DNA of 64,000 nt from Escherichia coli (lineage in GTDB: Bacteria > Pseudomonadota > Gammaproteobacteria > Enterobacterales > Enterobacteriaceae), in NCBI RefSeq assembly GCF_051903065.1, contig NZ_CP178438.1; one strand, 5' to 3'. Shown one piece after another: positions 31,678 through 64,000 of the stretch; position 1 is the first letter of the stretch; every line of letters starts with the position of its first letter. The position numbers and the translations under genes are program-made. The notes under the pieces were generated by a model. It was not told the DNA's origin. It saw nothing but the letters and a program-made list of their open reading frames with translations, and made no database searches.

Positions 31678-32418
<741 letters not shown>

Positions 32419-33055: not shown

Positions 33056-33063
33056 GGAAAGTT

Positions 33064-33674: not shown

Positions 33675-33687
33675 AAGAATTCACCAT

Positions 33688-35564: not shown

Positions 35565-35577
35565 AAAGGAACATCTC

Positions 35578-36870: not shown

Positions 36871-36890
36871 ACCCAGGACAGGAATCCGCA

Positions 36891-38601: not shown

Positions 38602-38631
38602 AGCGGCCAGTTTCTTTACAAGGAGTTTTAC

Positions 38632-39684: not shown

Positions 39685-39701
39685 TTCAAAGGAATGAAAA
39701 A

Positions 39702-40490: not shown

Positions 40491-40499
40491 GAGGTCTTT

Positions 40500-43819: not shown

Positions 43820-44475
43820 AACTGCAAGGGGTAATTTTCGATCTGGATGGTGTAATCACCGACACCGCGCATCTGCATTTCCAGGCGTGGCAGCAGATTG
43901 CCGCTGAAATTGGCATCAGCATTGATGCGCAGTTTAACGAATCCCTAAAAGGGATTAGCCGCGATGAGTCTCTGCGGCGCATTCTGCAATACGGGGGCAA
44001 AGAGGGCGACTTTAACTCGCAGGAGCGGGCGCAACTGGCGTATCGCAAAAATCTGCTCTACGTCCACTCACTGCGCGAACTGACGGTTAATGCCGTTCTG
44101 CCGGGGATCCGGCCTTTGCTGGCAGATCTCCGCGCACAGCAGATCCCGGTAGGGCTGGCTTCCGTCTCCCTGAATGCGCCGACGATTTTAGCGGCGCTGG
44201 AGCTGCGCGAGTTTTTCACCTTCTGCGCGGATGCTTCCCAACTTAAAAACTCGAAACCGGATCCGGAAATCTTTCTCGCTGCCTGTGCTGGGCTGGGCGT
44301 GCCGCCGCAGGCATGTATCGGCATTGAAGATGCGCAGGCGGGCATTGACGCCATTAACGCCAGCGGTATGCGCTCGGTGGGGATCGGCGCGGGCTTAACC
44401 GGGGCGCAATTACTGTTGCCTTCAACGGACTCCCTGACCTGGTCGCGGTTATCGGCCTTCTGGCAAAACGTATAG
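43816..44475 (+). CDS. ycjU: Beta-phosphoglucomutase (HAD family)
   Basis: 219-aa ORF with HAD motif DLDGVITDT. Confidence 0.9.
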
Positions 44476-44488
44476 CAAAGGAATCAAC

Positions 44489-45571: not shown

Positions 45572-45615
45572 ATACAGGGGGAAGGCATTCCCCCAGGATA
45601 ATACAAGGAACAATA

Positions 45616-46521: not shown

Positions 46522-46534
46522 TAATGGGCTAAAT

Positions 46535-46594
46535 TGCCGGATGCGGCGCGAGTACTTTATCCGATCTATAAATGTAGGCCGGATAAGATGCGCC
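46535..46594. repeat. REP elements; the second is split by IS150 and continues at 48027..48051
   Basis: gccggatgcggcgcgag...ttatccg, then taggccggataagatgcgcc | IS150 | gccagcatcgcatccggca. Confidence 0.65.
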
Positions 46595-47124
46595 TGAACT
46601 GCACCCCAAATGTTGGACATAATCTGACATCTGAAGGTGCAGTTTATGAAACATTCATTTGAAGTAAAACTTGCCGCTGTAAATCATTACCTGGCCGGTC
46701 ATGCAGGCATCATTTCTACGGCAAAACTCTTTCAACTTTCTCACACCAGCCTCTCACACTGGATTAATCTTTTTCTTCTTCACGGTCCTCAGGCACTGGA
46801 TTGCAGACACAAGCGTAGCTATTCTCCTGAAGATAAACTTTGCGTGGTTCTTTATGCTCTCGGGCATTCTGAGTCTCTACCCCGGGTAGCTGCCCGGTTT
46901 AACATTCCCAGCCACAACATGGTTAAAAACTGGATAAAAGGCTACCGCAAATCTGGTAATGAGGCCTTTATCAGGCGCAGGAAGGAGAAAAGCATGACCC
47001 GTTCTGATGATACCCATGAAAACGAGGCAAACATGACGCCGGAAGAGATGAAGAATGAGCTGCGTTATCTTCGCGCAGAAAATGCATATCTGAAAGCCAT
47101 GCAGGAGCATCTCCTGGAAAAAAA

Positions 47125-48020
<896 letters not shown>

Positions 48021-48066
48021 TGTTCAGCCAGCATCGCATCCGGCATTCAGGCAAGGTCGCTGGTAT

Positions 48067-49065
48067 TTATTTCAGCGTCATATGCGTGGCAACGGTAATA
48101 TTTTGTGGTGACGGTTTTCCGGCAATTAAGCGGAATAATAACTCACAGCTTTGTTGACCTAACTCCTGCGTCGGAACATCGATGCCGCCCGGTGCAGGCG
48201 TTAAAATAAATGACAGCGTTTCATTGCTATAACCCACCACCGCTAACTGCTGCGGAATAGCAATGTTTTTCTCTGCCGCCGCACGATAAATGCTCATTAA
48301 TTTCAGGCTGTCAGTGGCAAACACTGCCTCAGGCAACGGTGACTGACTTAATAATTGCCGTGCTGCTTGCAGTGCTGTTTCATGGGTATAACCGCCATCA
48401 ACAATCCATTCATCACGCACTGCAATATTATGATCTTCCAGACTCTGCTTATAACCATTTACCCGATCCACTGAAACATGGACATCAAGCGGTGCATGCA
48501 GACAGGCAATATTTTGATGTCCACTTTCAATTAACGCATCGGTCAACGCAATGCTGTCACCAAAATTATCGGTATCGACAGAATAAACATGGGCATATTG
48601 ACCTTCAACTTTGCCAATCACCACCACAGGAATATCGTATTTATCAAGTTGCGCAAAAAATGACTCATCCGCTGGCGAACTTAGCATAATAATGCCTTTA
48701 ATCATTTTCTGCTTAATTTTGCTTTCACATTTTTGTAAGTCTTCTGCCGGGTTGTGCGACGTCTGCAATATCACGTCGAAACCTTCTTCTTCCGCTTTGG
48801 CGGTGATGGCATGTAGAACCTCTGAGAAAAACGGATTACCCGCCGTAGTTTTGGTTGAACGGGTAGAAATCACCATAATGGCATCAAAACCCGAAGAGGT
48901 CAGCGCGCGGGCCAGCTTGTTTGGCTGATACTGTAATTCTTCAATGGCCCGTAACACTTTTTCGCGCGCTTCCGGGGAGATATTAGTTTGCTTATTCAGC
49001 ACGCGTGATACGGTGGATTTTGATACGCCTGCAACCCTGGCAATATCATAAATAGTAGGGGACAT
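48067..49065 (-). CDS. ycjW: LacI-family transcriptional regulator
   Basis: 332-aa ORF with N-terminal HTH ([21 protein letters not shown]). Confidence 0.9.
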
Positions 49066-49219
49066 AGGTCAGGAACTCCGTCCGAACGTGAATGCTGCAC
49101 ATCTTATGGAGTTCGCCCGTCGATGACAACACGGGCAGTTGATAATCAATGGCCTGGCCCCCACATTCATATCCTTACGAACGATTTTTTTCTGGTCTTC
49201 AGAGCAGCACAGGACAGCA

Positions 49220-50617
49220 ATGAAGCGACTTAAAAATGAACTTAATGCGCTGGTGAATCGGGGTGTCGACAGACATCTGCGCCTCGCCGTAACCGGACTT
49301 AGCCGCAGCGGCAAAACGGCGTTTATCACTGCGATGGTCAATCAGTTGCTCAATATTCACGCCGGAGCACGCTTGCCGCTGTTAAGCGCGGTGCGTGAAG
49401 AACGGCTGCTGGGCGTAAAACGCATTCCCCAGCGTGACTTTGGCATTCCGCGCTTCACCTATGATGAAGGGCTGGCGCAGTTATATGGCGATCCACCTGC
49501 CTGGCCAACGCCAACGCGCGGCGTCAGCGAAATTCGCCTGGCGCTACGTTTTAAATCGAACGATTCGCTGCTACGCCACTTTAAGGATACCTCCACGCTG
49601 TATCTGGAGATTGTGGATTATCCCGGCGAATGGTTGCTCGACCTGCCGATGCTGGCGCAGGACTATTTAAGCTGGTCGCGCCAGATGACGGGCTTACTTA
49701 ATGGTCAGCGCGGCGAATGGTCGGCGAAATGGCGAATGATGTGCGAAGGGCTGGACCCGCTAGCGCCTGCCGACGAAAACCGGCTGGCAGACATTGCCGC
49801 CGCGTGGACCGATTATCTCCACCACTGTAAACAGCAGGGGCTGCACTTTATTCAGCCAGGGCGCTTTGTCTTGCCGGGAGATATGGCAGGTGCGCCCGCG
49901 CTGCAATTCTTCCCGTGGCCGGATGTCGATGCCTGGGGCGAGTCCAAACTCGCGCAGGTCGATAAGCACACCAATGCCGGAATGCTGCGCGAGCGGTTTA
50001 ATTATTACTGCGAGAAAGTGGTGAAGGGGTTCTATAAGAATCATTTTCTGCGCTTTGACCGCCAGATTGTGCTGGTGGATTGCCTGCAACCTCTCAACAG
50101 TGGGCCACAGGCATTTAATGATATGCGTCTGGCGCTGACGCAGCTGATGCAAAGTTTCCACTACGGGCAGCGTACCCTGTTCAGGCGTTTGTTTTCGCCG
50201 GTTATCGATAAGCTATTGTTTGCTGCCACTAAAGCGGACCATGTGACCATTGATCAGCACGCCAATATGGTTTCATTGCTGCAACAACTAATTCAGGATG
50301 CCTGGCAAAATGCGGCGTTCGAAGGGATCAGCATGGATTGCCTGGGGTTGGCGTCAGTTCAGGCGACCACCAGTGGCATTATTGATGTTAACGGTGAGAA
50401 AATCCCGGCGCTGCGCGGTAATCGACTTAGCGATGGCGCACCGCTCACTGTTTATCCTGGCGAAGTTCCCGCACGTTTGCCTGGTCAGGCGTTCTGGGAT
50501 AAGCAAGGCTTCCAGTTTGAGGCATTTCGTCCGCAGGTGATGGATGTCGACAAACCCCTACCGCATATTCGTCTTGATGCTGCGCTGGAATTTTTAATAG
50601 GAGATAAATTGCGATGA
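49220..50617 (+). CDS. ycjX: P-loop NTPase of unknown function (DUF463)
   Basis: ORF 49139..50617; start set at [11 protein letters not shown]...; Walker A GLSRSGKT. Confidence 0.85.
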
Positions 50618-51675
50618 CCGAACCGTTAAAACCACGTATTGATTTCGACGGTCCGCTGGAGGTCGATCAGAATCCAAAATTCAGGGCGCAGCAGACCTTT
50701 GACGAAACTCAGGCGCAAAATTTTGCCCCGGCCACGCTCGACGAAGCGCAGGAAGAAGAGGGGCAAGTCGAAGCGGTAATGGACGCAGCGTTACGTCCGA
50801 AACGCAGCCTGTGGCGCAAAATGGTGATGGGCGGGCTGGCTCTGTTTGGCGCAAGCGTTGTCGGGCAGGGTATACAGTGGACAATGAATGCCTGGCAAAC
50901 TCAGGACTGGGTGGCGCTGGGTGGATGTGCCGCTGGGGCATTGATTATCGGCGCTGGCGTAGGTTCTGTGGTAACAGAGTGGCGGCGCTTATGGCGCTTG
51001 CGACAGCGCGCCCATGAACGCGACGAAGCGCGTGATTTATTGCATAGCCACGGAACCGGCAAAGGCCGCGCATTTTGCGAAAAACTGGCGCAGCAGGCGG
51101 GCATCGATCAGTCACATCCGGCGCTGCAACGCTGGTATGCCTCAATCCATGAAACGCAAAACGACCGTGAAGTGGTCAGTTTGTATGCGCATTTGGTCCA
51201 GCCAGTTTTAGATGCCCAGGCGCGGCGCGAAATCAGCCGCTCAGCAGCGGAATCAACGTTGATGATTGCGGTCAGTCCGCTGGCGCTGGTGGATATGGCA
51301 TTTATCGCCTGGCGCAATCTGCGTTTGATTAATCGCATCGCCACGCTGTATGGCATTGAACTGGGATATTACAGCCGTTTGCGCCTGTTCAAGCTGGTAT
51401 TGCTGAATATCGCTTTCGCCGGAGCCAGCGAATTGGTGCGCGAAGTGGGGATGGACTGGATGTCGCAAGATCTCGCTGCTCGTTTGTCTACCCGCGCAGC
51501 TCAGGGGATTGGTGCTGGGCTTCTGACGGCACGACTCGGGATTAAAGCTATGGAGCTTTGCCGCCCACTGCCGTGGATTGACGATGACAAACCTCGCCTC
51601 GGGGATTTCCGTCGTCAGCTTATCGGTCAGGTGAAAGAAACGCTGCAAAAAGGCAAAACGCCCAGCGAAAAATAA
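50614..51675 (+). CDS. ycjF: Inner-membrane protein of unknown function (DUF697)
   Basis: 353-aa ORF; ATGA overlap with the ycjX stop. Confidence 0.85.
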
Positions 51676-51734
51676 TGCAATATCGGGTGCTGACCGGATA
51701 TCTTTACGCCGAAGTGCCCGTTTTTCCGTCTTTG

Positions 51735-51752
51735 TGTCAATGATTGTTGACA
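51735..51752. promoter_or_regulatory. TyrR box-like palindrome TGTCAA-N6-TTGACA upstream of tyrR
   Basis: Perfect palindrome about 70 bp upstream of the tyrR start; fits TGTAAA-N6-TTTACA TyrR-box architecture. Confidence 0.6.
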
Positions 51753-51822
51753 GAAACCTTCCTGCTATCCAAATAGTGTCATATCATCATATTAATTGTT
51801 CTTTTTTCAGGTGAAGGTTCCC

Positions 51823-53364
51823 ATGCGTCTGGAAGTCTTTTGTGAAGACCGACTCGGTCTGACCCGCGAATTACTCGATCTACTCGTGCTAAGAGGCATT
51901 GATTTACGCGGTATTGAGATTGATCCCATTGGGCGAATCTACCTCAATTTTGCTGAACTGGAGTTTGAGAGTTTCAGCAGTCTGATGGCCGAAATACGCC
52001 GTATTGCAGGTGTTACCGATGTGCGTACTGTCCCGTGGATGCCTTCCGAACGTGAGCATCTGGCGTTGAGCGCGTTACTGGAGGCGTTGCCCGAACCTGT
52101 GCTCTCTGTCGATATGAAAAGCAAAGTGGATATGGCGAACCCGGCGAGCTGTCAGCTTTTTGGGCAAAAATTGGATCGCCTGCGCAACCATACCGCCGCA
52201 CAATTGATTAACGGCTTTAATTTTTTACGTTGGCTGGAAAGCGAACCGCAAGATTCGCATAACGAGCATGTCGTTATTAATGGGCAGAATTTCCTGATGG
52301 AGATTACGCCTGTTTATCTTCAGGATGAAAATGATCAACACGTCCTGACCGGTGCGGTGGTGATGTTGCGATCAACGATTCGTATGGGCCGTCAGTTGCA
52401 AAATGTCGCCGCCCTGGACGTCAGCGCCTTCAGTCAAATTGTCGCCGTCAGCCCGAAAATGAAGCATGTTGTCGAACAGGCGCAGAAACTGGCGATGCTA
52501 AGCGCGCCGCTGCTGATTACGGGTGACACAGGTACAGGTAAAGATCTTTTTGCCTACGCCTGCCATCAGGCAAGCCCCAGAGCGGGCAAACCTTACCTGG
52601 CGCTGAATTGCGCGTCTATACCGGAAGATGCGGTCGAGAGTGAATTGTTTGGTCATGCTCCGGAAGGGAAGAAAGGATTCTTTGAGCAGGCGAACGGTGG
52701 TTCGGTGCTGTTGGATGAAATAGGGGAAATGTCACCGCGGATGCAGGCGAAATTACTGCGTTTCCTTAATGATGGTACTTTCCGTCGGGTTGGTGAAGAC
52801 CATGAGGTGCATGTCGATGTGCGGGTGATTTGCGCTACGCAGAAGAATCTGGTCGAACTGGTGCAAAAAGGCATGTTCCGTGAAGATCTCTATTATCGTC
52901 TGAACGTGTTGACGCTTAATCTGCCGCCGCTACGTGACTGTCCGCAGGACATCATGCCGTTAACCGAGCTGTTCGTTGCCCGCTTTGCCGACGAGCAGGG
53001 CGTGCCGCGTCCGAAACTGGCCGCTGACCTGAATACTGTACTTACGCGTTATGCGTGGCCGGGAAATGTGCGGCAGTTAAAGAACGCTATCTATCGCGCA
53101 CTGACACAACTGGACGGCTATGAGCTGCGTCCTCAGGATATTTTGTTGCCGGATTATGACGCCGCAACGGTAGCCGTGGGCGAAGATGCGATGGAAGGTT
53201 CGCTGGACGAAATTACCAGCCGTTTTGAACGCTCGGTATTAACCCAGCTTTATCGCAATTATCCCAGCACGCGCAAACTGGCAAAACGTCTCGGCGTTTC
53301 ACATACCGCGATTGCCAATAAGTTGCGGGAATATGGCTTAAGCCAGAAGAAGAACGAAGAGTAA
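51823..53364 (+). CDS. tyrR: Transcriptional regulator of aromatic amino acid biosynthesis and transport
   Basis: ORF 51796..53364; start set at MRLEVFCEDRLGL...; sigma-54-activator-like central domain and C-terminal HTH. Confidence 0.9.
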   Translation: MRLEVFCEDRLGLTRELLDLLVLRGIDLRGIEIDPIGRIYLNFAELEFESFSSLMAEIRRIAGVTDVRTVPWMPSEREHLALSALLEALPEPVLSVDMKSKVDMANPASCQLFGQKLDRLRNHTAAQLINGFNFLRWLESEPQDSHNEHVVINGQNFLMEITPVYLQDENDQHVLTGAVVMLRSTIRMGRQLQNVAALDVSAFSQIVAVSPKMKHVVEQAQKLAMLSAPLLITGDTGTGKDLFAYACHQASPRAGKPYLALNCASIPEDAVESELFGHAPEGKKGFFEQANGGSVLLDEIGEMSPRMQAKLLRFLNDGTFRRVGEDHEVHVDVRVICATQKNLVELVQKGMFREDLYYRLNVLTLNLPPLRDCPQDIMPLTELFVARFADEQGVPRPKLAADLNTVLTRYAWPGNVRQLKNAIYRALTQLDGYELRPQDILLPDYDAATVAVGEDAMEGSLDEITSRFERSVLTQLYRNYPSTRKLAKRLGVSHTAIANKLREYGLSQKKNEE

Positions 53365-53369
53365 GCGCG

Positions 53370-53404
53370 AATATGCCTGATGGTGCAACACCATCAGGCA
53401 TATT
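53370..53404. terminator. Perfect 16-bp inverted repeat (aatatgcctgatggtg caa caccatcaggcatatt) between convergent tyrR and tpx
   Basis: Read directly in sequence. Confidence 0.7.
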
Positions 53405-53407
53405 AAC

Positions 53408-53914
53408 TTATGCTTTCAGTACAGCCAGAGCTGCTTCGTAATCCGGCTCGGTGGTGATTTCATCCACCAGCTGGCTGAAAATCACATTGTCATTTTCGTC
53501 AATAACCACAACGGCACGCGCTGCCAGACCTTTCAGTGGGCCATCAGCAATTGCCACACCGTAGGCTTGCAGGAATTCAGCGTTACGGAAAGTGGAGAGG
53601 GTGATAACGTTGTTCAGACCTTCTGCGCCGCAGAAACGAGACTGGGCGAACGGCAGATCGGCAGAGATACACAGCACAACGGTGTTGTCGATCTCGGTTG
53701 CCAGTTGGTTAAACTTACGTACTGATGCGGCGCAAACACCGGTATCAATACTCGGGAAAATGTTCAGCACTTTGCGTTTACCCGCAAACTGACCGAGGGT
53801 GACGTCAGACAGATCTTTTGCCACGAGAGTAAAAGTCTGCGCTTTGCTACCCGCCTGCGGGATGGAATTGGCGACTGTAACCGGGTTGCCCTGGAAATGA
53901 ACGGTTTGTGACAT
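53408..53914 (-). CDS. tpx: Thiol peroxidase (atypical 2-Cys peroxiredoxin)
   Basis: 168-aa ORF recognised as Tpx. Confidence 0.95.
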
Positions 53915-54032
53915 GATTATCTTTCCTGTTTACATATAGTTAACGTCACACCTAGTTTATGCTAACTGTCAATAACACAGCAAACGCTATTTGCGCTTAA
54001 TCCGCAGACCACCGCGACAACAAGGAGTAAAG

Positions 54033-54998
54033 ATGAGAACCGTTAAGGTATTTGAGGAAGCCTGGCCCTTACATACCCCGTTTGTGATTGCCCGGGGAAG
54101 TCGCAGTGAAGCGCGCGTGGTGGTGGTTGAACTGGAAGAAGAGGGTATTAAAGGCACCGGCGAATGCACGCCGTATCCGCGTTATGGAGAAAGTGATGCC
54201 TCGGTAATGGCGCAAATTATGAGCGTCGTACCGCAATTAGAGAAAGGGCTGACACGGGAGGAGTTGCAAAAAATTCTCCCTGCCGGCGCAGCACGTAATG
54301 CGCTGGATTGTGCATTGTGGGATCTGGCGGCGCGAAAACAGCAGCAATCGCTGGCTGATTTGATCGGCATAACGCTTCCCGAGACAGTCACCACTGCACA
54401 GACGGTAGTCATCGGTACGCCTGATCAGATGGCCAATAGCGCATCAACACTCTGGCAGGCCGGCGCGAAATTATTGAAAGTGAAGCTGGATAACCATCTT
54501 ATCAGTGAGCGGATGGTGGCAATTCGCACAGCTGTGCCCGATGCCACGCTGATCGTTGATGCAAATGAATCATGGCGTGCAGAAGGGTTGGCGGCACGTT
54601 GCCAGCTATTGGCGGATTTAGGCGTTGCTATGCTTGAACAACCGCTTCCTGCGCAGGACGATGCGGCACTGGAGAATTTTATTCATCCGTTACCGATTTG
54701 TGCTGATGAAAGTTGTCATACTCGTAGCAATCTGAAGGCGCTGAAAGGGCGCTATGAGATGGTTAACATTAAGCTCGATAAAACCGGGGGTCTGACGGAA
54801 GCGCTGGCGCTGGCGACTGAAGCACGTGCACAAGGTTTTCGTCTGATGCTGGGCTGCATGTTGTGTACCTCTCGTGCCATTAGCGCCGCTTTACCGCTGG
54901 TGCCGCAGGTCAGTTTCGCCGATCTTGACGGACCGACCTGGCTGGCGGTAGATGTGGAACCGGCGCTTCAGTTCACGACGGGCGAATTGCATCTTTAG
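54033..54998 (+). CDS. ycjG: L-Ala-D/L-Glu epimerase (enolase superfamily)
   Basis: ORF 53991..54998; start set at MRTVKVFEEAWPL... Confidence 0.85.
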   Translation: MRTVKVFEEAWPLHTPFVIARGSRSEARVVVVELEEEGIKGTGECTPYPRYGESDASVMAQIMSVVPQLEKGLTREELQKILPAGAARNALDCALWDLAARKQQQSLADLIGITLPETVTTAQTVVIGTPDQMANSASTLWQAGAKLLKVKLDNHLISERMVAIRTAVPDATLIVDANESWRAEGLAARCQLLADLGVAMLEQPLPAQDDAALENFIHPLPICADESCHTRSNLKALKGRYEMVNIKLDKTGGLTEALALATEARAQGFRLMLGCMLCTSRAISAALPLVPQVSFADLDGPTWLAVDVEPALQFTTGELHL

Positions 54999-55701
54999 GA
55001 TGCCAGCGCAGCAAGTTTGCCATCGCAAAGAGATATTTTTCGCTGGCTTCGTCGGAGGAGATGGGCGGAAACTCTGCGGTGATGCAATGCAAGTTCAGAT
55101 CTGCACACCAACTGCCGAAAGAGCCAGGCGTTTCATAACCGACGCTGGTTACCAGAGGCAATTCAAACGCCTGAGCCAGCCATTCGCCTAATTCGCTGTG
55201 TCTGGGATCTTCAATACAGGCCAGTGGATCGTGGAATGAGACCACCCAGGCAGGTTGAATGCGGTGTATAAGCTGGCACAGCGCCTGGGTTTCAGGTTCG
55301 GAGCCAGGTTTGTCACCAGTCAGTAATACGACATCACGTTCTTCAGCGGCGCTGTTCCAGCGATAAACCGTTTCACCTTCCTTCCAGTTTGCCGCCGGAA
55401 AGTTTCTGTTTAAATCCACACCATTAGCATTGGCCCGTAACCCCAGCTGGCAGCCGTCAGGATTCACACACAGCACCACATGATGGCGGCGCAAAGAAGG
55501 TGTCAAAGTCCGCAGAGCACAGGAGAGCGTGACGACCGAAGAGTTTTCATCACCGTGAGTGCCAGCCAGAATCAAACCACTTTCGCGACTGGCTGCAGGG
55601 GCCGGAAACCAGATTAACGGCGCGCCCAATAATGAACGTCCGTAATGTTCTGTTCCGGGCGGAAATGCGCCGCGTTCGGCGCGTGGGCGGGTTACGGTCA
55701 T
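54973..55701 (-). CDS. mpaA: Murein tripeptide amidase (gamma-D-Glu-Dap amidase, M14-like)
   Basis: ORF 54973..55761; start set at MTVTRPRAERG... (242 aa); overlaps the 3' end of ycjG on the opposite strand. Confidence 0.85.
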   Translation of the reverse strand: MTVTRPRAERGAFPPGTEHYGRSLLGAPLIWFPAPAASRESGLILAGTHGDENSSVVTLSCALRTLTPSLRRHHVVLCVNPDGCQLGLRANANGVDLNRNFPAANWKEGETVYRWNSAAEERDVVLLTGDKPGSEPETQALCQLIHRIQPAWVVSFHDPLACIEDPRHSELGEWLAQAFELPLVTSVGYETPGSFGSWCADLNLHCITAEFPPISSDEASEKYLFAMANLLRWHPKDAIRPS

Positions 55702-55991
55702 GATCGTCTCTGGTTCAGGAAGTATTACAGGCAGTGTTGTGCAAATTTTGCGGATTATCAAATCCTTTTCTTCAACGCTATGTCATCGATCTTGTATCAC
55801 TTTTTTGCCGGAAGTTGTTTGTATTTTTATTGATGTGCAGATATTAGAATTGTCGTAATGTTATATACATGGCGTATTTTATTCTTACTGGTTCTACACA
55901 TGTTAATCGCATCTGATTGATCAGTTCACCTTAATAAGTTTAATAAATCGTACTGCACATAGTACAGTACGATGGTGGCTATATAATTGAT

Positions 55992-56642
55992 TTACATGAA
56001 GAATGGCTTATCGCCATCAGTCCCGGGTTGATTGATGCCTATATTCTCACCAATGTGTTTCTCAGGTTTATCGATGATATCTGTAATTAATGCTGCGACA
56101 CTCTTACGTGATACGATCGTACCTTTGAATGGTTCATTGCGTGAGGTAAGCTCATAATCAATAATATCTTCATCCGTCAGCCAGGCAGGGCGAAGAATTG
56201 TATAATCCAGTCCAGAAGCCTCAATTGCATCCGCAGCCCTGCGGAATGGTTTTAGGGGCTCACCAATAACTGCATTATTCCATTCGCCAAATTTTCCTGG
56301 AACTTCATCATAAATGCCGAGGGAAAGAACAAAGATCAGACGTTTAACATCACAGGCTTTCATCGCAGCGATCACTGAATTTGCCTGAATATCTAAATCT
56401 TCCCCCGTAAGGTTGGCATACACAATATCCTGTCCCTGCATGGCCTGCTTCAGTGCTGCATGATTCAGTACATCCCCCATAATAATCTGGCTATTAGTTG
56501 GATAGGGTTTGTGTATTTTTGCTGGCTGACGAGCAAATAAAGTTTGTTTAATGGTTTGTTTATCTGCCAGTTGATTAATCACATGGCGGGCTATCTGACC
56601 GCCAGCACCAAGAATGAGTACTTTTTTCATAATATTTCTCAT
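55992..56642 (-). CDS. ymjC: NAD(P)-binding (NmrA/SDR-like) protein, apparently intact ymjC homolog
   Basis: 216-aa ORF with Rossmann motif ILGAGGQIARH. Confidence 0.7.
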   Translation of the reverse strand: MRNIMKKVLILGAGGQIARHVINQLADKQTIKQTLFARQPAKIHKPYPTNSQIIMGDVLNHAALKQAMQGQDIVYANLTGEDLDIQANSVIAAMKACDVKRLIFVLSLGIYDEVPGKFGEWNNAVIGEPLKPFRRAADAIEASGLDYTILRPAWLTDEDIIDYELTSRNEPFKGTIVSRKSVAALITDIIDKPEKHIGENIGINQPGTDGDKPFFM

Positions 56643-56647
56643 GAAAC

Positions 56648-57580
56648 TTATCCCAGATGGGTGTTGAAAAAAGGAATAACTTTTTCCAGCGCCTCCTGAA
56701 CTGCTTCCGGTTTGTCATACAGTTCATAATGTGAGAAATCGGGTAATGAAACTAACTGACGATCCTGCGAAACCATCGCCCGGCCATAGACTTCCAGTCC
56801 ATCACGATAAGCACCGAAGGCACCGACTTTTTCACCAACTACTACCATCACCGGCTGAGTCAGTAACACTTCAGTAAATGCGAAGGCATCCCAGGCCAGC
56901 GTTTTCTGTGCATGTGAGAACAACATTTTTGTCGCACCTCCCGGTTGTTGCCCGCGTGGTGTTTTATAGTAGTCAGTTGCTTCATAAACATCGCGTTCGG
57001 TCAGTCCATGGGCTTTTGCTGCATCCAGGCTGGCGGGAAGTAATTCGTTGATCTGTAATTCTCCACCACGAGCCTCTTTGGTTCGTTGCGACGCCATTGC
57101 ATTCAATGCGCCAATCGGATCGTAATTGCTGAAACCTTCCCGAAAAAGACGCCCGATATTAACACCCGTAATACTCACTACAGCTTTAATTCGTTTTTCT
57201 GTCAGCGCGGCATTAATGGCATAGCCCCTCCCCCCACACACACCCAGCACGCCAATGCGTTCAGCATCAACATATGGCAGAGTTACTGCATAATCGATAA
57301 CACGGCTAATATCCTCTACGCGCTGTGTCGGATCTTCTATCCAACGAGGCTCCCCACCAGATTCTCCCTGGAAATTGGCGTCATAAGCGAGAACGACATA
57401 GCCTTTTTCAGCCAATGCCTTGCCATAGATATTGCCAGACGTCTGCTCCTTACAACTGCCAAAAGGATGGACGCTGATAATCGCCGGATACTGTTTTGAC
57501 TCATCAAAATTTGGTGGAAACTGAATATTGGCAGCAATATGCCAGGCCATATCACTATTGCGGATTTGAATATGTTTCAT
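56648..57580 (-). CDS. Alpha/beta hydrolase (dienelactone-hydrolase-like, Cys nucleophile GVCGG)
   Basis: 310-aa ORF; paralog of the adjacent upstream gene. Confidence 0.75.
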   Translation of the reverse strand: MKHIQIRNSDMAWHIAANIQFPPNFDESKQYPAIISVHPFGSCKEQTSGNIYGKALAEKGYVVLAYDANFQGESGGEPRWIEDPTQRVEDISRVIDYAVTLPYVDAERIGVLGVCGGRGYAINAALTEKRIKAVVSITGVNIGRLFREGFSNYDPIGALNAMASQRTKEARGGELQINELLPASLDAAKAHGLTERDVYEATDYYKTPRGQQPGGATKMLFSHAQKTLAWDAFAFTEVLLTQPVMVVVGEKVGAFGAYRDGLEVYGRAMVSQDRQLVSLPDFSHYELYDKPEAVQEALEKVIPFFNTHLG

Positions 57581-58512
57581 TACAGAGTTTCCTCAAAGAA
57601 CGGAGCTAATACTGAAATTGCTTCAGCCACATAGGCTTTGCCGTCATAAAGATCCATATGGTTTGCGCCTTCAACAATGTGATAGCGTTTATCCTGGCTT
57701 GATGCCCGATCGTACAGGTCGTCACTCATCCATTTGCTCCCTGCCTGGCTGCCCGCCACAATCTGCATCGGCTGAGTCAGGTACACTTCCGCCATATGGT
57801 AAGCATCATAGGTAATAATCTGGTTAAGGCTGCGCAAAGTAGCGTAACCCGGTGCTGTTGGATACTGCGCACGAGGGGTGTGGTAATACTCCCAGGCCTG
57901 ACGCAGTTCTTCGTTCGGCGCATCGGCCTCCTTCATTGGAGCCAGTGGCATAATGGCGTATTCTTCGCTGCTAATATCGCTGGTTCGGGCGTTTGAGCCA
58001 GCTTCAATGTGTGGCAGAGCATCAATAGATTTCACATTGTTTTCCCAACCATTGCGGAACATCGAACCAATATTGACCGCACTAACGGTACCGATGGCCT
58101 TGATGCGGCGATCCTGAATTGCAGCATTGGCTGTATATCCTGCACCGGCACAAATTCCCATCGCACCAATTCGGGTATTGTCGACATAAGAAAGCGTTGT
58201 CAGGTAATCAATCACGGCACTGATGTCTTCAGTACGAATGTATGGGTTTTCTAACTGACGCGGCTCGCCGCCACTTTCACCCTGATAAGATGCGTCATAA
58301 GCAATAGTGACAAATCCCTTTTCCGCCAGTTTTTCGGCATAGGTCCCGGCCGTTTGTTCTTTAACGCCCCCACCTGGGTGAGATACCACAATTGCCGGAT
58401 ATTGACGGGTTTCATCAAATTTTGGAGGAAAATAGATCACTGCAGACAAAGAGATGGTTGGATTATTGCTGTTAGTGAAGCTGACTTTATTATTCATCAT
58501 TCCGTTCCTCAT
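57580..58512 (-). CDS. ycjY: Alpha/beta hydrolase (dienelactone-hydrolase-like, GICAG), ycjY-like
   Basis: 310-aa ORF; TAATG stop/start overlap with the downstream paralog. Confidence 0.7.
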   Translation of the reverse strand: MRNGMMNNKVSFTNSNNPTISLSAVIYFPPKFDETRQYPAIVVSHPGGGVKEQTAGTYAEKLAEKGFVTIAYDASYQGESGGEPRQLENPYIRTEDISAVIDYLTTLSYVDNTRIGAMGICAGAGYTANAAIQDRRIKAIGTVSAVNIGSMFRNGWENNVKSIDALPHIEAGSNARTSDISSEEYAIMPLAPMKEADAPNEELRQAWEYYHTPRAQYPTAPGYATLRSLNQIITYDAYHMAEVYLTQPMQIVAGSQAGSKWMSDDLYDRASSQDKRYHIVEGANHMDLYDGKAYVAEAISVLAPFFEETL

Positions 58513-58570
58513 GGAGTTGTTGGTTCGTTTTAACGGTTGGTGATATCACTATAGATATTGATCATTAAGT

Positions 58571-58615
58571 TGATTAGACCCAAAATCATGATTAGACCTA
58601 TCATTTAAATGATTA
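58571..58615. promoter_or_regulatory. pgrR divergent control region: direct repeat TGATTAGACC x2 plus palindrome ATCATTTAAATGAT (T-N11-A type)
   Basis: Read directly; sits between divergent hydrolase operon and pgrR. Confidence 0.5.
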
Positions 58616-58637
58616 ATAGATTGTATGGAGATACTGA

Positions 58638-59537
58638 ATGAAGCGTGAAGAGATCGCTGATCTGATGGCGTTTGTCGTCGTTGCAGAGGAGCGTAGCTTC
58701 ACTCGAGCAGCAGCCCGCCTGAGCATGGCGCAGTCAGCTTTAAGCCAGATAGTGCGCCGTATAGAAGAACGATTGGGATTGCGGCTTCTGACGCGAACTA
58801 CGCGCAGCGTTGTACCAACTGAAGCGGGCGAGCATCTTTTGTCTGTTCTTGGCCCTATGTTGCATGACATAGATTCTGCCCTGACATCCCTGAGCGATCT
58901 GCAGAACCGCCCATCCGGGACAATACGTATTACTACTGTAGAACATGCAGCAAAAACGATATTGTTACCAGCCATGCGCACATTCCTGAGATCGCATCCT
59001 GAAATTGATATTCAGCTCACCATTGATTATGGTTTGACCGATGTCGTTTCTGAACGTTTTGATGCAGGCGTCCGTCTGGGTGGGGAGATGGATAAAGATA
59101 TGATCGCCATTCGAATCGGGCCAGATATACCAATGGCTATTGTTGGCTCACCGGATTATTTTTCTCGCCGAAGTGTTCCAACGTCAGTGTCACAATTAAT
59201 AGATCATCAGGCAATTAATTTGTATCTTCCCACATCGGGTACAGCAAATCGCTGGAGATTAATACGCGGTGGACGTGAAGTTCGTGTTCGCATGGAAGGT
59301 CAGCTTTTACTGAATACGATAGACCTGATCATTGATGCTGCAATTGATGGGCATGGATTGGCGTATCTACCTTATGATCAGGTTGAGCGGGCTATTAAAG
59401 AAAAAAAACTGATACGTGTTTTGGATAAATTCACACCAGATTTACCCGGTTATCACCTGTACTATCCACACCGTCGACATGCTGGCTCGGCATTCTCATT
59501 ATTTATAGATAGGCTGAAGTATAAAGGTGCTGTTTAG
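58638..59537 (+). CDS. pgrR: LysR-family transcriptional regulator
   Basis: 299-aa ORF with N-terminal HTH (FTRAAARLSMAQSALSQ); recognised as PgrR/YcjZ. Confidence 0.85.
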   Translation: MKREEIADLMAFVVVAEERSFTRAAARLSMAQSALSQIVRRIEERLGLRLLTRTTRSVVPTEAGEHLLSVLGPMLHDIDSALTSLSDLQNRPSGTIRITTVEHAAKTILLPAMRTFLRSHPEIDIQLTIDYGLTDVVSERFDAGVRLGGEMDKDMIAIRIGPDIPMAIVGSPDYFSRRSVPTSVSQLIDHQAINLYLPTSGTANRWRLIRGGREVRVRMEGQLLLNTIDLIIDAAIDGHGLAYLPYDQVERAIKEKKLIRVLDKFTPDLPGYHLYYPHRRHAGSAFSLFIDRLKYKGAV

Positions 59538-59873
59538 CACTACTTGCTGATACATTAATTTAATTCTTCTCTTAACGTATTCTCAGTTCCTTTCAACGTT
59601 TTGGTTATTTTTTATTCTTCGTACAATGGCGACAGATGCTGATTATGATACCGAAAACTGGTTTGAACGTGTGAAGCCCGAACGTAGTGTTCGGTGTTCT
59701 ATGTGCTTTGCCGCATTTTGGCGTCTATTATTTACACTAAATATGATTTAATATATTGATACATAAAACATTTTATGCTTCCTGTGTCACTTTTTTGATG
59801 GAAGTTGTTTGCATTTCTTTAAGGCGAAACAAATAATTACGCATCAATTTTAATGTCGGTTAGAGGGAAACTT

Positions 59874-61487
59874 ATGAAGCACTCTGTTTCAGTCACGTGT
59901 TGTGCGCTGTTGGTCAGCAGCATTTCTCTTTCGTATGCTGCAGAAGTTCCGAGCGGCACAGTACTGGCAGAGAAGCAGGAGCTGGTGCGCCACATTAAAG
60001 ATGAGCCTGCGTCGCTGGATCCCGCTAAAGCCGTGGGCCTGCCAGAGATTCAGGTCATTCGCGATCTTTTTGAAGGACTGGTGAATCAGAACGAGAAAGG
60101 GGAGATTGTCCCCGGCGTTGCGACTCAGTGGAAAAGTAATGACAACCGTATCTGGACTTTTACCCTGCGCGATAACGCAAAATGGGCGGATGGCACACCG
60201 GTAACGGCGCAAGATTTTGTCTACAGCTGGCAGCGTCTGGTGGACCCGAAAACGCTATCGCCATTTGCATGGTTTGCCGCGCTGGCGGGAATCAACAACG
60301 CACAGGCGATTATTGATGGTAAAGCTACGCCTGACCAGCTTGGCGTCACCGCAGTTGATGCCCATACTTTGAAAATTCAGCTTGATAAACCGTTGCCGTG
60401 GTTTGTGAATTTAACCGCTAACTTTGCCTTCTTCCCGGTGCAAAAAGCCAACGTAGAAAGCGGTAAAGAGTGGACGAAACCCGGAAATCTGATCGGCAAT
60501 GGCGCTTATGTTCTTAAAGAGCGCGTAGTCAATGAAAAACTGGTCGTGGTACCGAATACCCATTATTGGGATAACGCCAAAACGGTACTGCAAAAAGTGA
60601 CCTTCCTGCCAATTAATCAGGAATCCGCAGCCACTAAGCGTTACCTCGCGGGGGATATTGATATCACCGAATCCTTCCCGAAAAATATGTATCAGAAGCT
60701 GTTGAAGGATATTCCGGGGCAGGTTTATACGCCGCCGCAGCTCGGGACCTATTATTATGCGTTTAACACGCAAAAAGGGCCGACGGCAGATCAGCGCGTT
60801 CGTCTGGCATTAAGTATGACGATAGATCGCCGCCTGATGACCGAAAAAGTATTAGGGACGGGCGAAAAGCCAGCGTGGCATTTTACACCAGATGTTACCG
60901 CCGGATTTACGCCGGAACCTTCGCCGTTTGAACAAATGAGTCAGGAAGAACTGAATGCGCAGGCAAAAACTTTGTTGAGCGCAGCTGGTTATGGTCCGCA
61001 AAAACCGCTGAAGCTGACGCTTTTGTATAACACTTCAGAAAACCATCAAAAAATTGCGATTGCTGTAGCATCGATGTGGAAAAAGAACCTTGGCGTAGAT
61101 GTTAAATTGCAAAATCAGGAATGGAAAACCTATATCGATAGCCGTAACACCGGCAATTTTGATGTTATCCGCGCCTCATGGGTGGGGGATTATAATGAAC
61201 CCTCCACTTTCCTGACATTATTAACGTCAACGCATTCAGGAAATATTTCACGCTTTAACAATCCGGCATACGACAAAGTTCTGGCCCAGGCATCGACGGA
61301 AAATACCGTTAAAGCGCGTAATGCCGATTACAACGCGGCAGAAAAAATCCTCATGGAGCAAGCACCGATTGCACCAATTTATCAATATACCAATGGACGA
61401 TTAATCAAGCCGTGGCTGAAAGGTTATCCCATTAATAACCCGGAAGATGTGGCGTACAGTCGGACTATGTATATTGTGAAGCATTGA
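59874..61487 (+). CDS. mppA: Periplasmic murein tripeptide-binding protein
   Basis: ORF 59853..61487; start set at MKHSVSVTCCALL... (537 aa) after an agagggaaa ribosome-binding site. Confidence 0.9.
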   Translation: MKHSVSVTCCALLVSSISLSYAAEVPSGTVLAEKQELVRHIKDEPASLDPAKAVGLPEIQVIRDLFEGLVNQNEKGEIVPGVATQWKSNDNRIWTFTLRDNAKWADGTPVTAQDFVYSWQRLVDPKTLSPFAWFAALAGINNAQAIIDGKATPDQLGVTAVDAHTLKIQLDKPLPWFVNLTANFAFFPVQKANVESGKEWTKPGNLIGNGAYVLKERVVNEKLVVVPNTHYWDNAKTVLQKVTFLPINQESAATKRYLAGDIDITESFPKNMYQKLLKDIPGQVYTPPQLGTYYYAFNTQKGPTADQRVRLALSMTIDRRLMTEKVLGTGEKPAWHFTPDVTAGFTPEPSPFEQMSQEELNAQAKTLLSAAGYGPQKPLKLTLLYNTSENHQKIAIAVASMWKKNLGVDVKLQNQEWKTYIDSRNTGNFDVIRASWVGDYNEPSTFLTLLTSTHSGNISRFNNPAYDKVLAQASTENTVKARNADYNAAEKILMEQAPIAPIYQYTNGRLIKPWLKGYPINNPEDVAYSRTMYIVKH

Positions 61488-61500
61488 TGTGATGGGAACT

Positions 61501-61524
61501 GGCGTTACCCTTGTGGATAACGCC
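61501..61524. terminator. Hairpin (ggcgttaccc...ggataacgcc) between convergent mppA and ynaI
   Basis: Inverted repeat read directly. Confidence 0.55.
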
Positions 61525-61537
61525 AGTGATGTCTGAT

Positions 61538-62569
61538 TTAGCGGCCCTGTTCCGGCGGTGTAATGTTATCCATATACAGCGTCTGGCTGGGGAAGGCAAA
61601 GTCCGCGCCGTGTGACTGTACAATATCGATAATCTTCAAATAAACGTCTTGCTGTGCAGCAAGCCACTCAGCCCATACCGTGGTTTTGGTAAAGCAATAA
61701 ACCATAATATTCAATGACGAGTCAGCAAACTGGTTGAAATAAACCAGTAAGGTTTGTCGCTGGTCGATGGCCGGGTGATTTTTCAGCATCTCACGTACGG
61801 CTTCGACGATAACGCCCACTTTTGCCGCATCCTCATAACGTAAACCAATGGTCGTGGTAATGCGGCGGTTGGTCATTCGTCCTGGGTTTTCTACGCTGAT
61901 CGACGAAAACAGCGAGTTCGGTACGTACAATGGACGATTATCAAAGGTCGTAATTTTGGTAATTCGCCAGCCAATTTCCGCTACTGTACCTTCGATATTT
62001 CTGTCCGGTGAACGGATCCAGTCGCCAATACTGAAAGGACGGTCGAAATAGAGCATGATCCCGGAAAAGAAATTACTCAGAATATCTTTACCGGCCATAC
62101 CGACAGCCAGACCACCAATACCACCAAAGGTCAGCAAGCCAGAAAGGCTCATGCCGAAATGTTCGCCATAAAGCAGAACAAGCACCACAATAATGGTGAT
62201 TTTGATAATGCGCGACATAATCCGCGCACTGGTGATATCGCGACCTTTTTTAATCTGCTGTTTTTCAAACTGATTAATCAGCAGAAATAGCTTAATCGTC
62301 AGAATAACCGCAATCAGGGACGTACAGATAAAATCGATAACGCCTGGGGTGATAAATTTGAGTTTATAGTTTTCTATAACATAATTAATAATGCTACCAA
62401 CAGCACTGATAATTATGGTGTAGATTAAAAATTGCACCGCATGGAATAAAAAACCTTTTCTTTTACGATTTCCGCGGCGAAACCAAAAGCTCATCAGAAT
62501 CAATGCTGCGCAGCTACCGAAAATAATGACCAGATTAAGCGCATTATTTGTAAACAGTTCAGCGATCAT
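61538..62569 (-). CDS. ynaI: MscS-family mechanosensitive channel
   Basis: 343-aa ORF with N-terminal TM helices and MscS-type C-terminal domain. Confidence 0.85.
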
Positions 62570-62812
62570 TGTTTTATCAGGCTCCTCCAGATAATTGTCG
62601 TCATGCCGGAAACCCCTGGCGGGGCTATTTTACCGCGACAATTCATTCAGATCATCAATAGTCAGGGAAGGAAGTAGCAACATTAGCTAACTAATCAATG
62701 CGTTGATTGTAAATCCAGCTAAGAGGTGAGGTTTTCAGAGCAGACAACGGTGAAATGTCATGGTATTGTTACGTTTAGGTAACAAGAAATTTGTCTGCAC
62801 AAGGATTACATC

Positions 62813-63070
62813 ATGATTATGGCGAAACTGAAGTCAGCGAAAGGGAAGAAATTTCTCTTTGGTTTGTTGGCGGTTTTCATTATTGCGGCGTCGGTTGTGA
62901 CTCGCGCGACTATCGGCGGCGTTATAGAACAGTACAATATTCCGCTGTCTGAGTGGACGACATCAATGTATGTGATTCAGTCATCGATGATTTTTGTTTA
63001 TAGCCTGGTCTTTACTGTGTTGCTGGCAATCCCGTTGGGAATTTATTTCCTTGGCGGCGAAGAGCAGTAA
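62813..63070 (+). CDS. ynaJ: Small inner-membrane protein (DUF2534)
   Basis: 85-aa two-TM ORF. Confidence 0.8.
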   Translation: MIMAKLKSAKGKKFLFGLLAVFIIAASVVTRATIGGVIEQYNIPLSEWTTSMYVIQSSMIFVYSLVFTVLLAIPLGIYFLGGEEQ

Positions 63071-63079
63071 GTAAAAAAT

Positions 63080-63099
63080 AGGCCCGATAACTCGGGCCT
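63080..63099. terminator. Hairpin (aggcccg-ataact-cgggcct) between convergent ynaJ and uspE
   Basis: Read directly. Confidence 0.65.
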
Positions 63100-63119
63100 T
63101 GTCAGTTATTGAAGAGTCG

Positions 63120-64000
63120 TTAATCGTCTTCTTCGTCATCCAGTTCAACGGGTGTCTGATACTGGTCAGGTTTAATGACCAACAGATCGCAGCGAAGATG
63201 ATCAATCACCTGTTCCGCCGTGTTGCCGAGGAATGCTGCTGAAATACCGGTGCGTCCTACCGTGCCCAGAACCACAATCCCCGCCTGTAAGTGCTCCGCC
63301 AAATCAGGAATCACCTCTTCTGGCAGACCTTTTTCTACGTGCGTCATGTTTTCATTAATGCCGAATTTCTGCCGCAGGGCTTTCATTGCCAGCAAATGTT
63401 GCCCACGAATGGCATCGTTATAAACGCTCGGATCAAATTCCGGCAGTTCAATCGCGATATTAATTGGCGTTACTGGGTAAGCGCCAACCAGATGAACTTC
63501 GGTATGGTTGACTTGTTCTGCCAGTTCGATCGTCTCTTTGACCAGTTTTTCATTGAGCGCATTATGATACGGCTCTTCACTGGCGAGATTCACCGCCACC
63601 AGCGCCTTACCTCCTTCCGGCCACGGCTGGTCTTTCACCATCCACACCGGGCTTGGGCATTTGCGTAACAGATGCCAGTCCGTTGGCGTAAAAATCACCG
63701 CTTCCAGACGGTCATGTTGGTGCGCCATTTTTAGCACCAAATCGTGCCCGCCGCTGATCACTTCCTGAATGATGGCTTCGAAAGGACGGTTATGCCAGAC
63801 CACTTTAATTTCAATGGGAACGCCAGCATTGAGATAATATTTTGCCTGCTCGTGGATCCAGGCTGTACGCTGGCTGATGACGCCCTGACGCATAGCGGTA
63901 CGTTCGTCCGGGGAGAGCAGGGTGGTCATTTCGTATGAGAAGTCATAGATCGGCAAAAAGGCTTTAATTTTGCCACCAATCCGTTGATGTAAATAAACAG
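63120..64000 (-). CDS. uspE: Universal stress protein E (tandem Usp domains); N-terminus lies beyond the window end
   Basis: ORF open to the 3' window edge; C-terminus (...[15 protein letters not shown]) recognised as UspE. Confidence 0.85.

What the first reader, a model, noticed from the sequence alone, without database searches (positions are those of the whole stretch)
62570..62812. No IS5 between ynaI and ynaJ; overall IS content suggests a non-K-12 (possibly B-lineage-like) E. coli
From memory K-12 MG1655 carries an IS5 copy between ynaI and ynaJ; here the interval is a plain 243-bp intergenic region. Together with IS1 x2, IS150, the intact ycjV and the efflux remnant, the window is probably from another E. 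coli lineage. This is a provenance inference, not a functional claim.
Basis: inference. Interest (0 to 1): 0.2.

Follow-up and report, generated by a model that had tools for sequence, protein, structure and literature searches.

The report
Empty IS5 site; non-K-12 strain
The gap between ynaI and ynaJ is the ordinary, uninterrupted form found in about 93% of complete E. coli genomes; only K-12 laboratory strains carry an IS5 there, and the window comes from a wild phylogroup E strain, not from K-12 or the B lineage.

Summary
ynaI (61538..62569, -) and ynaJ (62813..63070, +) are separated by 243 bp with no insertion sequence. MG1655 carries IS5F at this spot. Once IS5 and one copy of its 4-bp CTAA target duplication are removed, the window interval is 243/243 identical to the K-12 flanks. 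The unoccupied target is at 62687..62690.

Among 5,426 complete E. coli genomes, 5,057 have the empty site. 355 (left junction) and 346 (right junction) have the K-12 IS5 junctions, and every one listed is a K-12 laboratory derivative.

The inference is half right. The window is not K-12: shared sequence is 97.9% identical and there are six structural differences. It is not B-like either: REL606 is 97.7% identical and shares K-12's structure here.

The window is 99.991% identical over all 64 kb to strain 23CRST027 (human faeces, Ecuador). That genome types in silico as Clermont phylogroup E. O157:H7 Sakai is the closest of the three references compared in all 16 4-kb bins (tied with MG1655 in one; 98.6% overall).

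The IS1 x2, the intact ycjV and the efflux remnant (eef locus cut by IS1) are confirmed. The finding is ordinary and already known.

The parts
61538..62569 (-). ynaI, low-conductance mechanosensitive channel (343 aa)
   Evidence: ORF. Annotated ynaI, WP_000559900.1, in 23CRST027; REL606 carries the same protein accession.
62570..62812 (.). 243-bp ynaI/ynaJ divergent intergenic region with no IS: the finding itself
   Evidence: It is 243/243 identical to the MG1655 flanks after removal of IS5F and one CTAA.
62687..62690 (.). Unoccupied IS5 target CTAA, the 4 bp that are duplicated on either side of IS5F in K-12
   Evidence: Junction sequences ...TTAGCTAA|GGAAGGTGCG...CGCACCTTCC|CTAACTAATC in MG1655. 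CTAA/CTAG are given as the IS5 flanking sites in PMC11677980.
62813..63070 (+). ynaJ, DUF2534 family small membrane protein (85 aa)
63120..64000 (-). uspE (its 5' end runs off the window)
1276..2043 (-). IS1 copy 1 (768 bp) between osmB and yciT, a simple insertion with an 8-bp duplication CTGCAAAT (1268..1275 and 2044..2051)
   Evidence: Absent from MG1655, REL606, Sakai and ECNB21-M121.
9895..10662 (+). IS1 copy 2 (768 bp) with no target duplication, abutting a deletion of eefR, eefA and the 5' part of eefB
   Evidence: 2,682 bp of Sakai (locus positions 12264..14945) have no counterpart in the window.
10663..15563 (+). Remnant of the eef efflux locus: 5'-truncated RND permease (to 13014), outer-membrane factor (13018..14391) and MFS transporter (14400..15563). 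K-12 and REL606 have ycjD here instead.
44489..45571 (+). Intact ycjV (ABC ATPase, 1083 bp, 360 aa)
   Evidence: In MG1655 the gene is 1 bp shorter and annotated as the pseudogenes ycjV + ymjB. It is intact in REL606 and Sakai.
46595..48026 (+). IS3-family element of IS1397 type (1432 bp, ends TGAAC...GTTCA, two ORFs with a frameshift), with a 3-bp duplication GCC (46592..46594 and 48027..48029), inserted in the centre of a REP palindrome between ompG and ycjW.
55832..57522 (-). SDR oxidoreductase and alpha/beta hydrolase genes, mostly deleted in K-12 and REL606 (which keep ymjC/ymjD remnants) and present in Sakai

Best explanation
The 243-bp interval is the ancestral, never-occupied form of the divergent ynaI/ynaJ promoter region. 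IS5F inserted at its CTAA (62687..62690) in the K-12 lineage, duplicating those 4 bp, so the absence of IS5 is the default state in E. coli. The window itself comes from a natural phylogroup E isolate that is clonal with strains 23CRST027 and 23CRST031 (human faeces, Ecuador), not from K-12 or B. Its lineage-specific changes are two IS1 insertions and one IS1397-type insertion. One of the IS1 copies has deleted the front of the eef efflux locus. The IS1397-type element sits in a REP. Shown: sequence identity, junction anatomy, database counts and marker typing. Inferred: the direction of the event (insertion in K-12 rather than precise loss everywhere else), from the distribution among genomes.
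For: Anatomy: ynaI, the 243-bp interval and ynaJ are as described. MG1655 carries IS5F with a CTAA duplication, and the flanks are 243/243 identical to the window. Distribution: the empty site is present in 5,057 of 5,426 genomes. The K-12 left junction is in 355 and the right junction in 346, and all 60 listed carriers are K-12 laboratory strains such as MG1655, C600, J53, DH5alpha, DH1, NCM3722 and RR1. Provenance: the window matches NZ_AP045789.1 positions 1687955..1751954 with 4 mismatches and 2 one-base indels in 64 kb. 23CRST031 matches both window chunks that were searched, 1-25000 and 39001-64000, at 100%. Identity over shared sequence is 98.61% to Sakai, 97.93% to MG1655 and 97.75% to REL606, and Sakai is best or tied-best in all 16 4-kb bins. 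Apart from the three clonal genomes, the best-ranked matches to 39001..64000 that are collinear in 2-3 pieces are almost all O157:H7 genomes (one unnamed record at 98.8% precedes them). Marker typing of the matching genome: chuA primers exact, 288 bp; AceK.f/ArpA1.r 400 bp; no yjaA between rrfE and yjaB; both E-specific ArpAgpE primers exact including their 3' ends. In MG1655 the controls give the expected 211, 400 and 301 bp, with a 3'-terminal mismatch in each E-specific primer.
Against: The window is not letter-for-letter 23CRST027 (six differences), so the exact source may be a sister isolate or another assembly. The phylogroup markers lie outside the window and were read from the matching genome. 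The primer sequences came from my memory, although exact hits with the expected amplicon sizes validate them. Identity to Sakai (98.6%) is only about 0.7-0.9 points above that to the phylogroup A references. No phylogroup D or F reference was compared directly. The middle of the window (25001..39000) was not searched against the collection on its own.
Confidence: 0.93

Rival explanations
1. The window comes from the E. coli B lineage (REL606/BL21) or a close relative.
For: REL606 also has a 243-bp empty ynaI-ynaJ interval and an intact ycjV. From my own knowledge, B strains carry many IS1 copies and IS150.
Against: REL606 is 97.75% identical over shared sequence, no closer than K-12. It has ycjD instead of the eef locus, shares K-12's ymjC-region deletion and the extra ~122 bp between puuR and puuC, and has no IS at any of the three insertion sites. 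The supposed IS150 is not IS150. The matching genome is chuA-positive, whereas B strains belong to phylogroup A, which is chuA-negative (my knowledge).
Confidence: 0.01
2. The window comes from a K-12 derivative that lost IS5F by precise excision.
For: The 243-bp interval itself is 100% identical to the K-12 flanks.
Against: There are about 1,100 mismatches to MG1655 over 54 kb. The eef locus replaces ycjD, ycjV is intact, the ymjC region is intact, and IS insertions lie elsewhere. The same 120 bp around the site are 100% identical in many unrelated wild strains.
Confidence: 0.005
3. The source is a phylogroup D (or other chuA+, arpA+, yjaA-) strain rather than phylogroup E, and the E-type arpA allele and the similarity to O157 arose by recombination.
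For: The quadruplex pattern + + - alone does not separate D from E. No D reference was aligned. One window segment (28001..32000) is only 95-96% identical to all three references, which suggests a mosaic history.
Against: Both E-specific primers match exactly, including their discriminating 3' bases, and those bases differ in MG1655. Among the roughly 5,400 complete genomes matched, the highest-ranked collinear (2-3-piece) non-clonal matches to 39001..64000 are almost all O157:H7 genomes. Sakai is collinear with the window apart from the three IS events.
Confidence: 0.05

Closest known systems
E. coli K-12 MG1655 ynaI-IS5F(insH4, b1331)-ynaJ locus
   Same: Same genes in the same order, and flanking intergenic sequence 100% identical to the window.
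   Different: K-12 carries the 1,195-bp IS5F plus a second CTAA; the window has the single, unoccupied CTAA. In K-12 this IS5 copy can recombine with a second IS5 and delete ynaJ-uspE-fnr (PMC2072959). It is one of the 11 IS5 copies of BW25113 (PMC11677980).
E. coli strains 23CRST027 / 23CRST031 (NZ_AP045789.1, NZ_AP045800.1) and ECNB21-M121 (NZ_CP083585.1)
   Same: 99.99-100% identity. 23CRST027 has all three IS insertions and the eef deletion over the full window. 23CRST031 matches chunks 1-25000 and 39001-64000 in one piece each at 100%.
   Different: 23CRST027 differs at 6 positions (1543, 5075, 9544, 26657, 47162, 60360). ECNB21-M121 lacks about 6% of window 1-25000 and matches in three pieces spanning about 1.1 kb more DNA, consistent with it lacking both IS1 copies and keeping a longer, intact eef locus (its annotation was not read). 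It shares the IS1397-type insertion.
E. coli O157:H7 Sakai (phylogroup E), pyrF-uspE region
   Same: Collinear with the window, including eefRABCD, the intact ymjC region, intact ycjV and the empty ynaI-ynaJ site. It is the closest of the three references in all 16 4-kb bins, tied with MG1655 in one.
   Different: 98.6% identity. It has no IS1 or IS1397 at these sites, and its ycjN stop codon is at a different position (codon 210 against 138).
IS1397 (IS3 family, REP/BIME-specific insertion sequence)
   Same: Two-ORF, frameshifted IS3-type transposase labelled 'IS1397 family' by PGAP. Inserted in the centre of a REP palindrome with a 3-bp duplication. IS1397 is reported to insert specifically into E. 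coli REP sequences (PMC1525189).
   Different: The element was not aligned to the ISfinder reference sequence, so identity to IS1397 proper rests on the PGAP label and on the insertion behaviour.

Membership tests
E. coli K-12 lineage | IS5F between ynaI and ynaJ with a CTAA duplication | tested here: not met
   The window has a single CTAA and no IS. The junctions are found in 355 (left) and 346 (right) genomes, and every listed carrier is a K-12 derivative.
E. coli K-12 lineage | Near-identity of sequence and the local K-12 structure (ycjD, frameshifted ycjV, ymjC/ymjD remnants) | tested here: not met
   97.93% identity over 54.3 kb. The eef locus replaces ycjD, ycjV is intact at 1083 bp, and the SDR/hydrolase genes are present.
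E. coli B lineage (REL606/BL21) | Near-identity to REL606 over the region | tested here: not met
   97.75% identity over 54.3 kb, with the same structural differences as K-12 except for IS5 and ycjV.
   The element at 46595..48026 shares only short patches (70 bp or less, about 77%) with MG1655 IS150.
Clermont phylogroup E | arpA+, chuA+, yjaA- and an E-specific arpA allele (ArpAgpE primers) | tested here: met
   Tested on the 99.991%-identical genome NZ_AP045789.1, not on the window. chuA gives 288 bp and aceK-arpA 400 bp. No yjaA gene or primer site lies between rrfE and yjaB. Both ArpAgpE primers are exact and 1,077 bp apart, which is 301 bp plus an IS1. The primer sequences came from my memory and were validated by exact hits and expected amplicon sizes.
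Clermont phylogroup E | Core-genome or MLST placement within phylogroup E | not testable with these tools
   No MLST database or whole-genome tree is available here. The support is indirect: O157:H7 genomes make up nearly all of the best collinear non-clonal matches, and Sakai is best or tied-best in every bin.
IS5 target site | 4-bp CTAA/CTAG target, duplicated on insertion | tested here: met
   CTAA flanks IS5F on both sides in MG1655 and occurs once at the corresponding point in the window. The target sites are named in PMC11677980.
IS1397 | IS3-family architecture and insertion into the centre of a REP/PU palindrome with a short duplication | tested here: met
   PGAP label and programmed frameshift. 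Ends TGAAC...GTTCA, GCC duplication, and an empty site GCCGGATAAGATGCGCC/AGCATCGCATCCGGC in Sakai and MG1655. REP specificity is described in PMC1525189.
IS1397 | High nucleotide identity to the ISfinder reference IS1397 | not tested

The most novel reading that the evidence does not exclude
The overlapping CTAACTAA motif in the ynaI/ynaJ divergent promoter region may be a recurrent landing pad for IS5-family elements. K-12's IS5 and an unrelated IS5-family element in FDAARGOS_943 inserted within 3-5 bp of each other, and about ten genomes have neither the empty site nor the K-12 state. Such insertions might rewire expression of the YnaI channel or of YnaJ.
Probability: 0.2. Interest if true: 0.15.

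Novelty: already known. Interest (0 to 1): 0.05.

Why it matters
It matters only as bookkeeping. It fixes the provenance of the window (a wild phylogroup E strain, clonal with 23CRST027), so K-12 coordinates and K-12-specific features should not be assumed when other findings in this window are read. Those features are IS5F, the ycjV frameshift, ycjD and the ymjC remnants. It also shows that lacking IS5 here carries no lineage information beyond 'not K-12'. One practical side point: the K-12 IS5 copy at this site is known to mediate deletion of ynaJ-uspE-fnr in laboratory stocks (PMC2072959), an instability this strain does not have.

Tried and rejected
I searched the literature for the sequence type of 23CRST027, 23CRST031 and ECNB21-M121. 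Only incidental mentions of ECNB21-M121 turned up, with no ST or phylogroup.

I tried to read the primary IS1397 papers (PMC94167, PMC169884) and Sawers 2005 on IS5 upstream of fnr (PMC1070394). None is held, so the length and duplication size of reference IS1397 are not cited.

An Rfam scan of the whole window at gathering thresholds gave no hits.

A promoter-consensus scan of 62400..63200 found no sigma-70-like site. It found only two terminator-like hairpins: one after ynaJ/uspE, and a weak one at 62604..62621. Neither changes the reading.

I considered and rejected a B-lineage origin, K-12 with precise IS5 excision, and IS150 as the identity of the third IS.

I did not run a separate collection search for window 25001..39000, because the direct alignment to 23CRST027 already covers it.

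Full report
**1. The observation**

The sequence at 61000..64000 and its ORFs show three genes in order:
- ynaI at 61538..62569 on the minus strand (343 aa)
- ynaJ at 62813..63070 on the plus strand (85 aa)
- uspE from 63120 onward on the minus strand

RefSeq annotation of a near-identical genome names the genes ynaI (low-conductance mechanosensitive channel) and ynaJ (DUF2534 protein).

**2. The K-12 comparison**

NC_000913.3 annotates 'insertion sequence:IS5F' at 1396044..1397238 (insH4, b1331) between ynaI (b1330) and ynaJ (b1332).

The MG1655 junctions read ...CATTAGCTAA|GGAAGGTGCG (IS5) ...CGCACCTTCC|CTAACTAATC..., which is a 4-bp CTAA duplication. Joining the 121-bp left flank and the 126-bp right flank and removing one CTAA reproduces the window interval with 243/243 identities. 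The unoccupied target is therefore window 62687..62690. A study of all 11 IS5 copies of BW25113 lists ynaI/ynaJ among them and names CTAA/CTAG as the flanking sites (PMC11677980).

**3. How unusual the empty site is**

It is not unusual.
- A 120-bp probe centred on the CTAA is matched contiguously in 5,057 of 5,426 complete E. coli genomes.
- A probe across the K-12 left junction (60 bp of flank plus 60 bp of IS5) is matched in full in 355 genomes. The right-junction probe is matched in full in 346.
- All 60 listed carriers of the right junction, and the four sampled for the left, are K-12 laboratory derivatives. They include MG1655 sublines, C600, J53, DH5alpha, DH1, NCM3722 and RR1.
- About ten genomes have neither state.

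REL606 and the B-derived NEBExpress have the empty site, and so does O157:H7 Sakai. The absence of IS5 excludes K-12 and nothing more. From this distribution I infer that the empty site is ancestral and that the insertion arose in the K-12 lineage.

**4. Provenance of the window**

Collection searches with 39001..64000 and 1..25000 both put NZ_AP045789.1 (strain 23CRST027, human faeces, Santo Domingo, Ecuador) and NZ_AP045800.1 (23CRST031) first, at 100% in one piece. A direct alignment of all 64 kb to NZ_AP045789.1 positions 1687955..1751954 gives 99.991% identity, with 4 mismatches and 2 one-base indels. The differences are at 1543, 5075, 9544, 26657, 47162 and 60360.

ECNB21-M121 (meat) is 100% identical to the second chunk. 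In the first chunk it lacks about 6% of the query and matches in three pieces spanning about 1.1 kb more DNA, which is consistent with it lacking both IS1 copies and keeping a longer, intact efflux locus. I did not read its annotation.

Only 9 records reach 99% identity over 39001..64000. Apart from the clonal genomes, the best matches that are collinear in 2-3 pieces are almost all O157:H7 genomes at 98.7% (one unnamed record at 98.8% precedes them).

**5. K-12 and B tested directly**

Over shared sequence the window is 97.93% identical to MG1655 (54.3 kb), 97.75% to REL606 (54.3 kb) and 98.61% to Sakai (61.0 kb). Sakai is best or tied-best in all 16 4-kb bins (tied with MG1655 in 24001..28000).

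Structural differences from MG1655:
- an IS1 at 1276..2043
- IS1 plus an efflux locus at 9637..15599, where K-12 has ycjD
- about 122 bp extra in K-12 between puuR and puuC
- an IS3-family element at 46595..48026
- SDR and hydrolase genes at 55832..57522, where K-12 keeps only ymjC/ymjD remnants
- IS5F in K-12
- a ycjV that is 1 bp shorter in K-12 and annotated there as the pseudogenes ycjV and ymjB

REL606 shares every K-12 state except IS5F and the ycjV frameshift. The B-lineage suggestion therefore fails. Sakai is collinear with the window apart from the three IS events.

**6. Phylogroup**

The window carries no typing marker, so I read the markers from the 99.991%-identical genome.
- chuA lies between dctR and yhiD.
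- arpA (annotated espL4) lies beside aceK and is split by an IS1.
- No yjaA lies between rrfE and yjaB, where an IS1397-type copy sits instead.

I used the Clermont 2013 primers from memory. The chuA pair matches exactly, 288 bp apart. AceK.f (2 mismatches) and ArpA1.r (exact) lie 400 bp apart. Both E-specific ArpAgpE primers match exactly, 1,077 bp apart, which is 301 bp plus the IS1.

In MG1655 the same primers give 211 bp (yjaA), 400 bp and 301 bp, and each E-specific primer mismatches only at its 3'-terminal base. That result validates both the recalled sequences and their allele specificity. The pattern arpA+, chuA+, yjaA-, arpAgpE+ is phylogroup E. B strains belong to phylogroup A (my knowledge).

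**7.

- IS1 x2 is correct. Copy 1 (1276..2043) is a simple insertion with an 8-bp CTGCAAAT duplication. Copy 2 (9895..10662) has no duplication and abuts a 2,682-bp gap relative to Sakai that removes eefR, eefA and the 5' part of the RND gene. This is the signature of an IS1-mediated adjacent deletion.
- The 'efflux remnant' is this eef locus.
- The intact ycjV is correct, but it is simply the non-K-12 state.
- 'IS150' is wrong. The 1,432-bp element shares only short patches of 70 bp or less at about 77% with MG1655 IS150. PGAP labels its frameshifted transposase 'IS1397 family'. It sits, with a GCC duplication, in the centre of the palindrome GCCGGATAAGATGCGCC/AGCATCGCATCCGGC between ompG and ycjW. 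IS1397 is reported to insert specifically in E. coli REP sequences (PMC1525189).

**8. What the interval does**

It is the shared upstream region of two divergently transcribed genes (PMC11677980). The consensus scan found no strong sigma-70 match, and Rfam found nothing in the whole window.

In K-12 the IS5 splits this region 121 bp from ynaI and 126 bp from ynaJ. The same IS5 copy (b1331) has been shown to recombine with a second IS5 near ogt and delete ynaJ-uspE-fnr in laboratory stocks (PMC2072959). The strain in the window has the native arrangement and lacks that instability. This last point is an inference.

**9. Verdict**

'Non-K-12' is supported, 'B-lineage-like' is not, and 'IS150' was misidentified. 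Everything here is already known biology. Interest is very low.

Noticed in passing
window 46592..48029: An IS3-family element of IS1397 type (1,432 bp, GCC duplication) is inserted precisely in the centre of a REP palindrome between ompG and ycjW. A second copy, 99.93% identical, lies in 23CRST027 between rrfE and yjaB, where yjaA sits in K-12 (L009 16555..17986).
   Followed up: partly
window 9895..15563: The eefRABCD-type efflux locus between fabI and sapF is decapitated by an IS1 with no target duplication; 2,682 bp present in Sakai are missing. The match pattern of the clonal strain ECNB21-M121 suggests it keeps the locus intact, which would make the deletion very recent.
   Followed up: partly
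window 35989..35991 (ycjN, 35578..36870): ycjN carries a TAG at codon 138, where MG1655 and Sakai have TGG. Sakai's ycjN is also a pseudogene, but its stop is at codon 210, so the gene was inactivated twice independently in related lineages.
   Followed up: partly
window 28001..32000: The puuB-puuE-pspF segment is only 95.2-96.0% identical to Sakai, MG1655 and REL606, well below the 97-99.7% seen in the rest of the window. It may be a recombinant or lineage-specific allele block.
   Followed up: no
window 55832..57522: An SDR oxidoreductase and an alpha/beta hydrolase are intact here and in Sakai (where the hydrolase is a pseudogene). K-12 and REL606 share the same deletion, which leaves the ymjC/ymjD fragments.
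   Followed up: partly
L015 (NZ_CP065615.1, FDAARGOS_943) 1583..2500; corresponds to window ~62691..62694: A different IS5-family element (about 0.9 kb, ends GGCTGTGTCCC...GGGACACAGCC, apparent TA duplication) is inserted 3-5 bp from the K-12 IS5 site, within the overlapping CTAACTAA motif. About ten genomes have neither the empty nor the K-12 state.
   Followed up: partly
L009 24652..27614 (NZ_AP045789.1, outside the window): arpA (annotated espL4) of the matching strain is split by an IS1 that lies inside the Clermont E-specific amplicon. The PCR product would be 1,077 bp instead of 301 bp, so the strain could be mistyped as phylogroup D by gel or by size-strict in-silico typing.
   Followed up: partly
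window 1543, 5075, 9544, 26657, 47162, 60360: These are the only six differences from 23CRST027: two one-base indels and four A/G transitions. The indel at 1543 lies inside IS1 copy 1, which RefSeq marks as frameshifted in 23CRST027. The differences could come from a sister isolate or from assembly or polishing differences.
   Followed up: no
window 62604..62621 (+ strand): A short GC hairpin followed by a T-rich run lies inside the intergenic region, antisense to the ynaI leader. It is a pattern match only: 2 terminator-like sites were found against 0.8 expected from shuffles.
   Followed up: no
window ~26300: MG1655 and REL606 carry about 122 bp between puuR and puuC that are absent from the window and from Sakai. 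This is probably a REP/BIME-type insertion or deletion, but I did not examine it.
   Followed up: no
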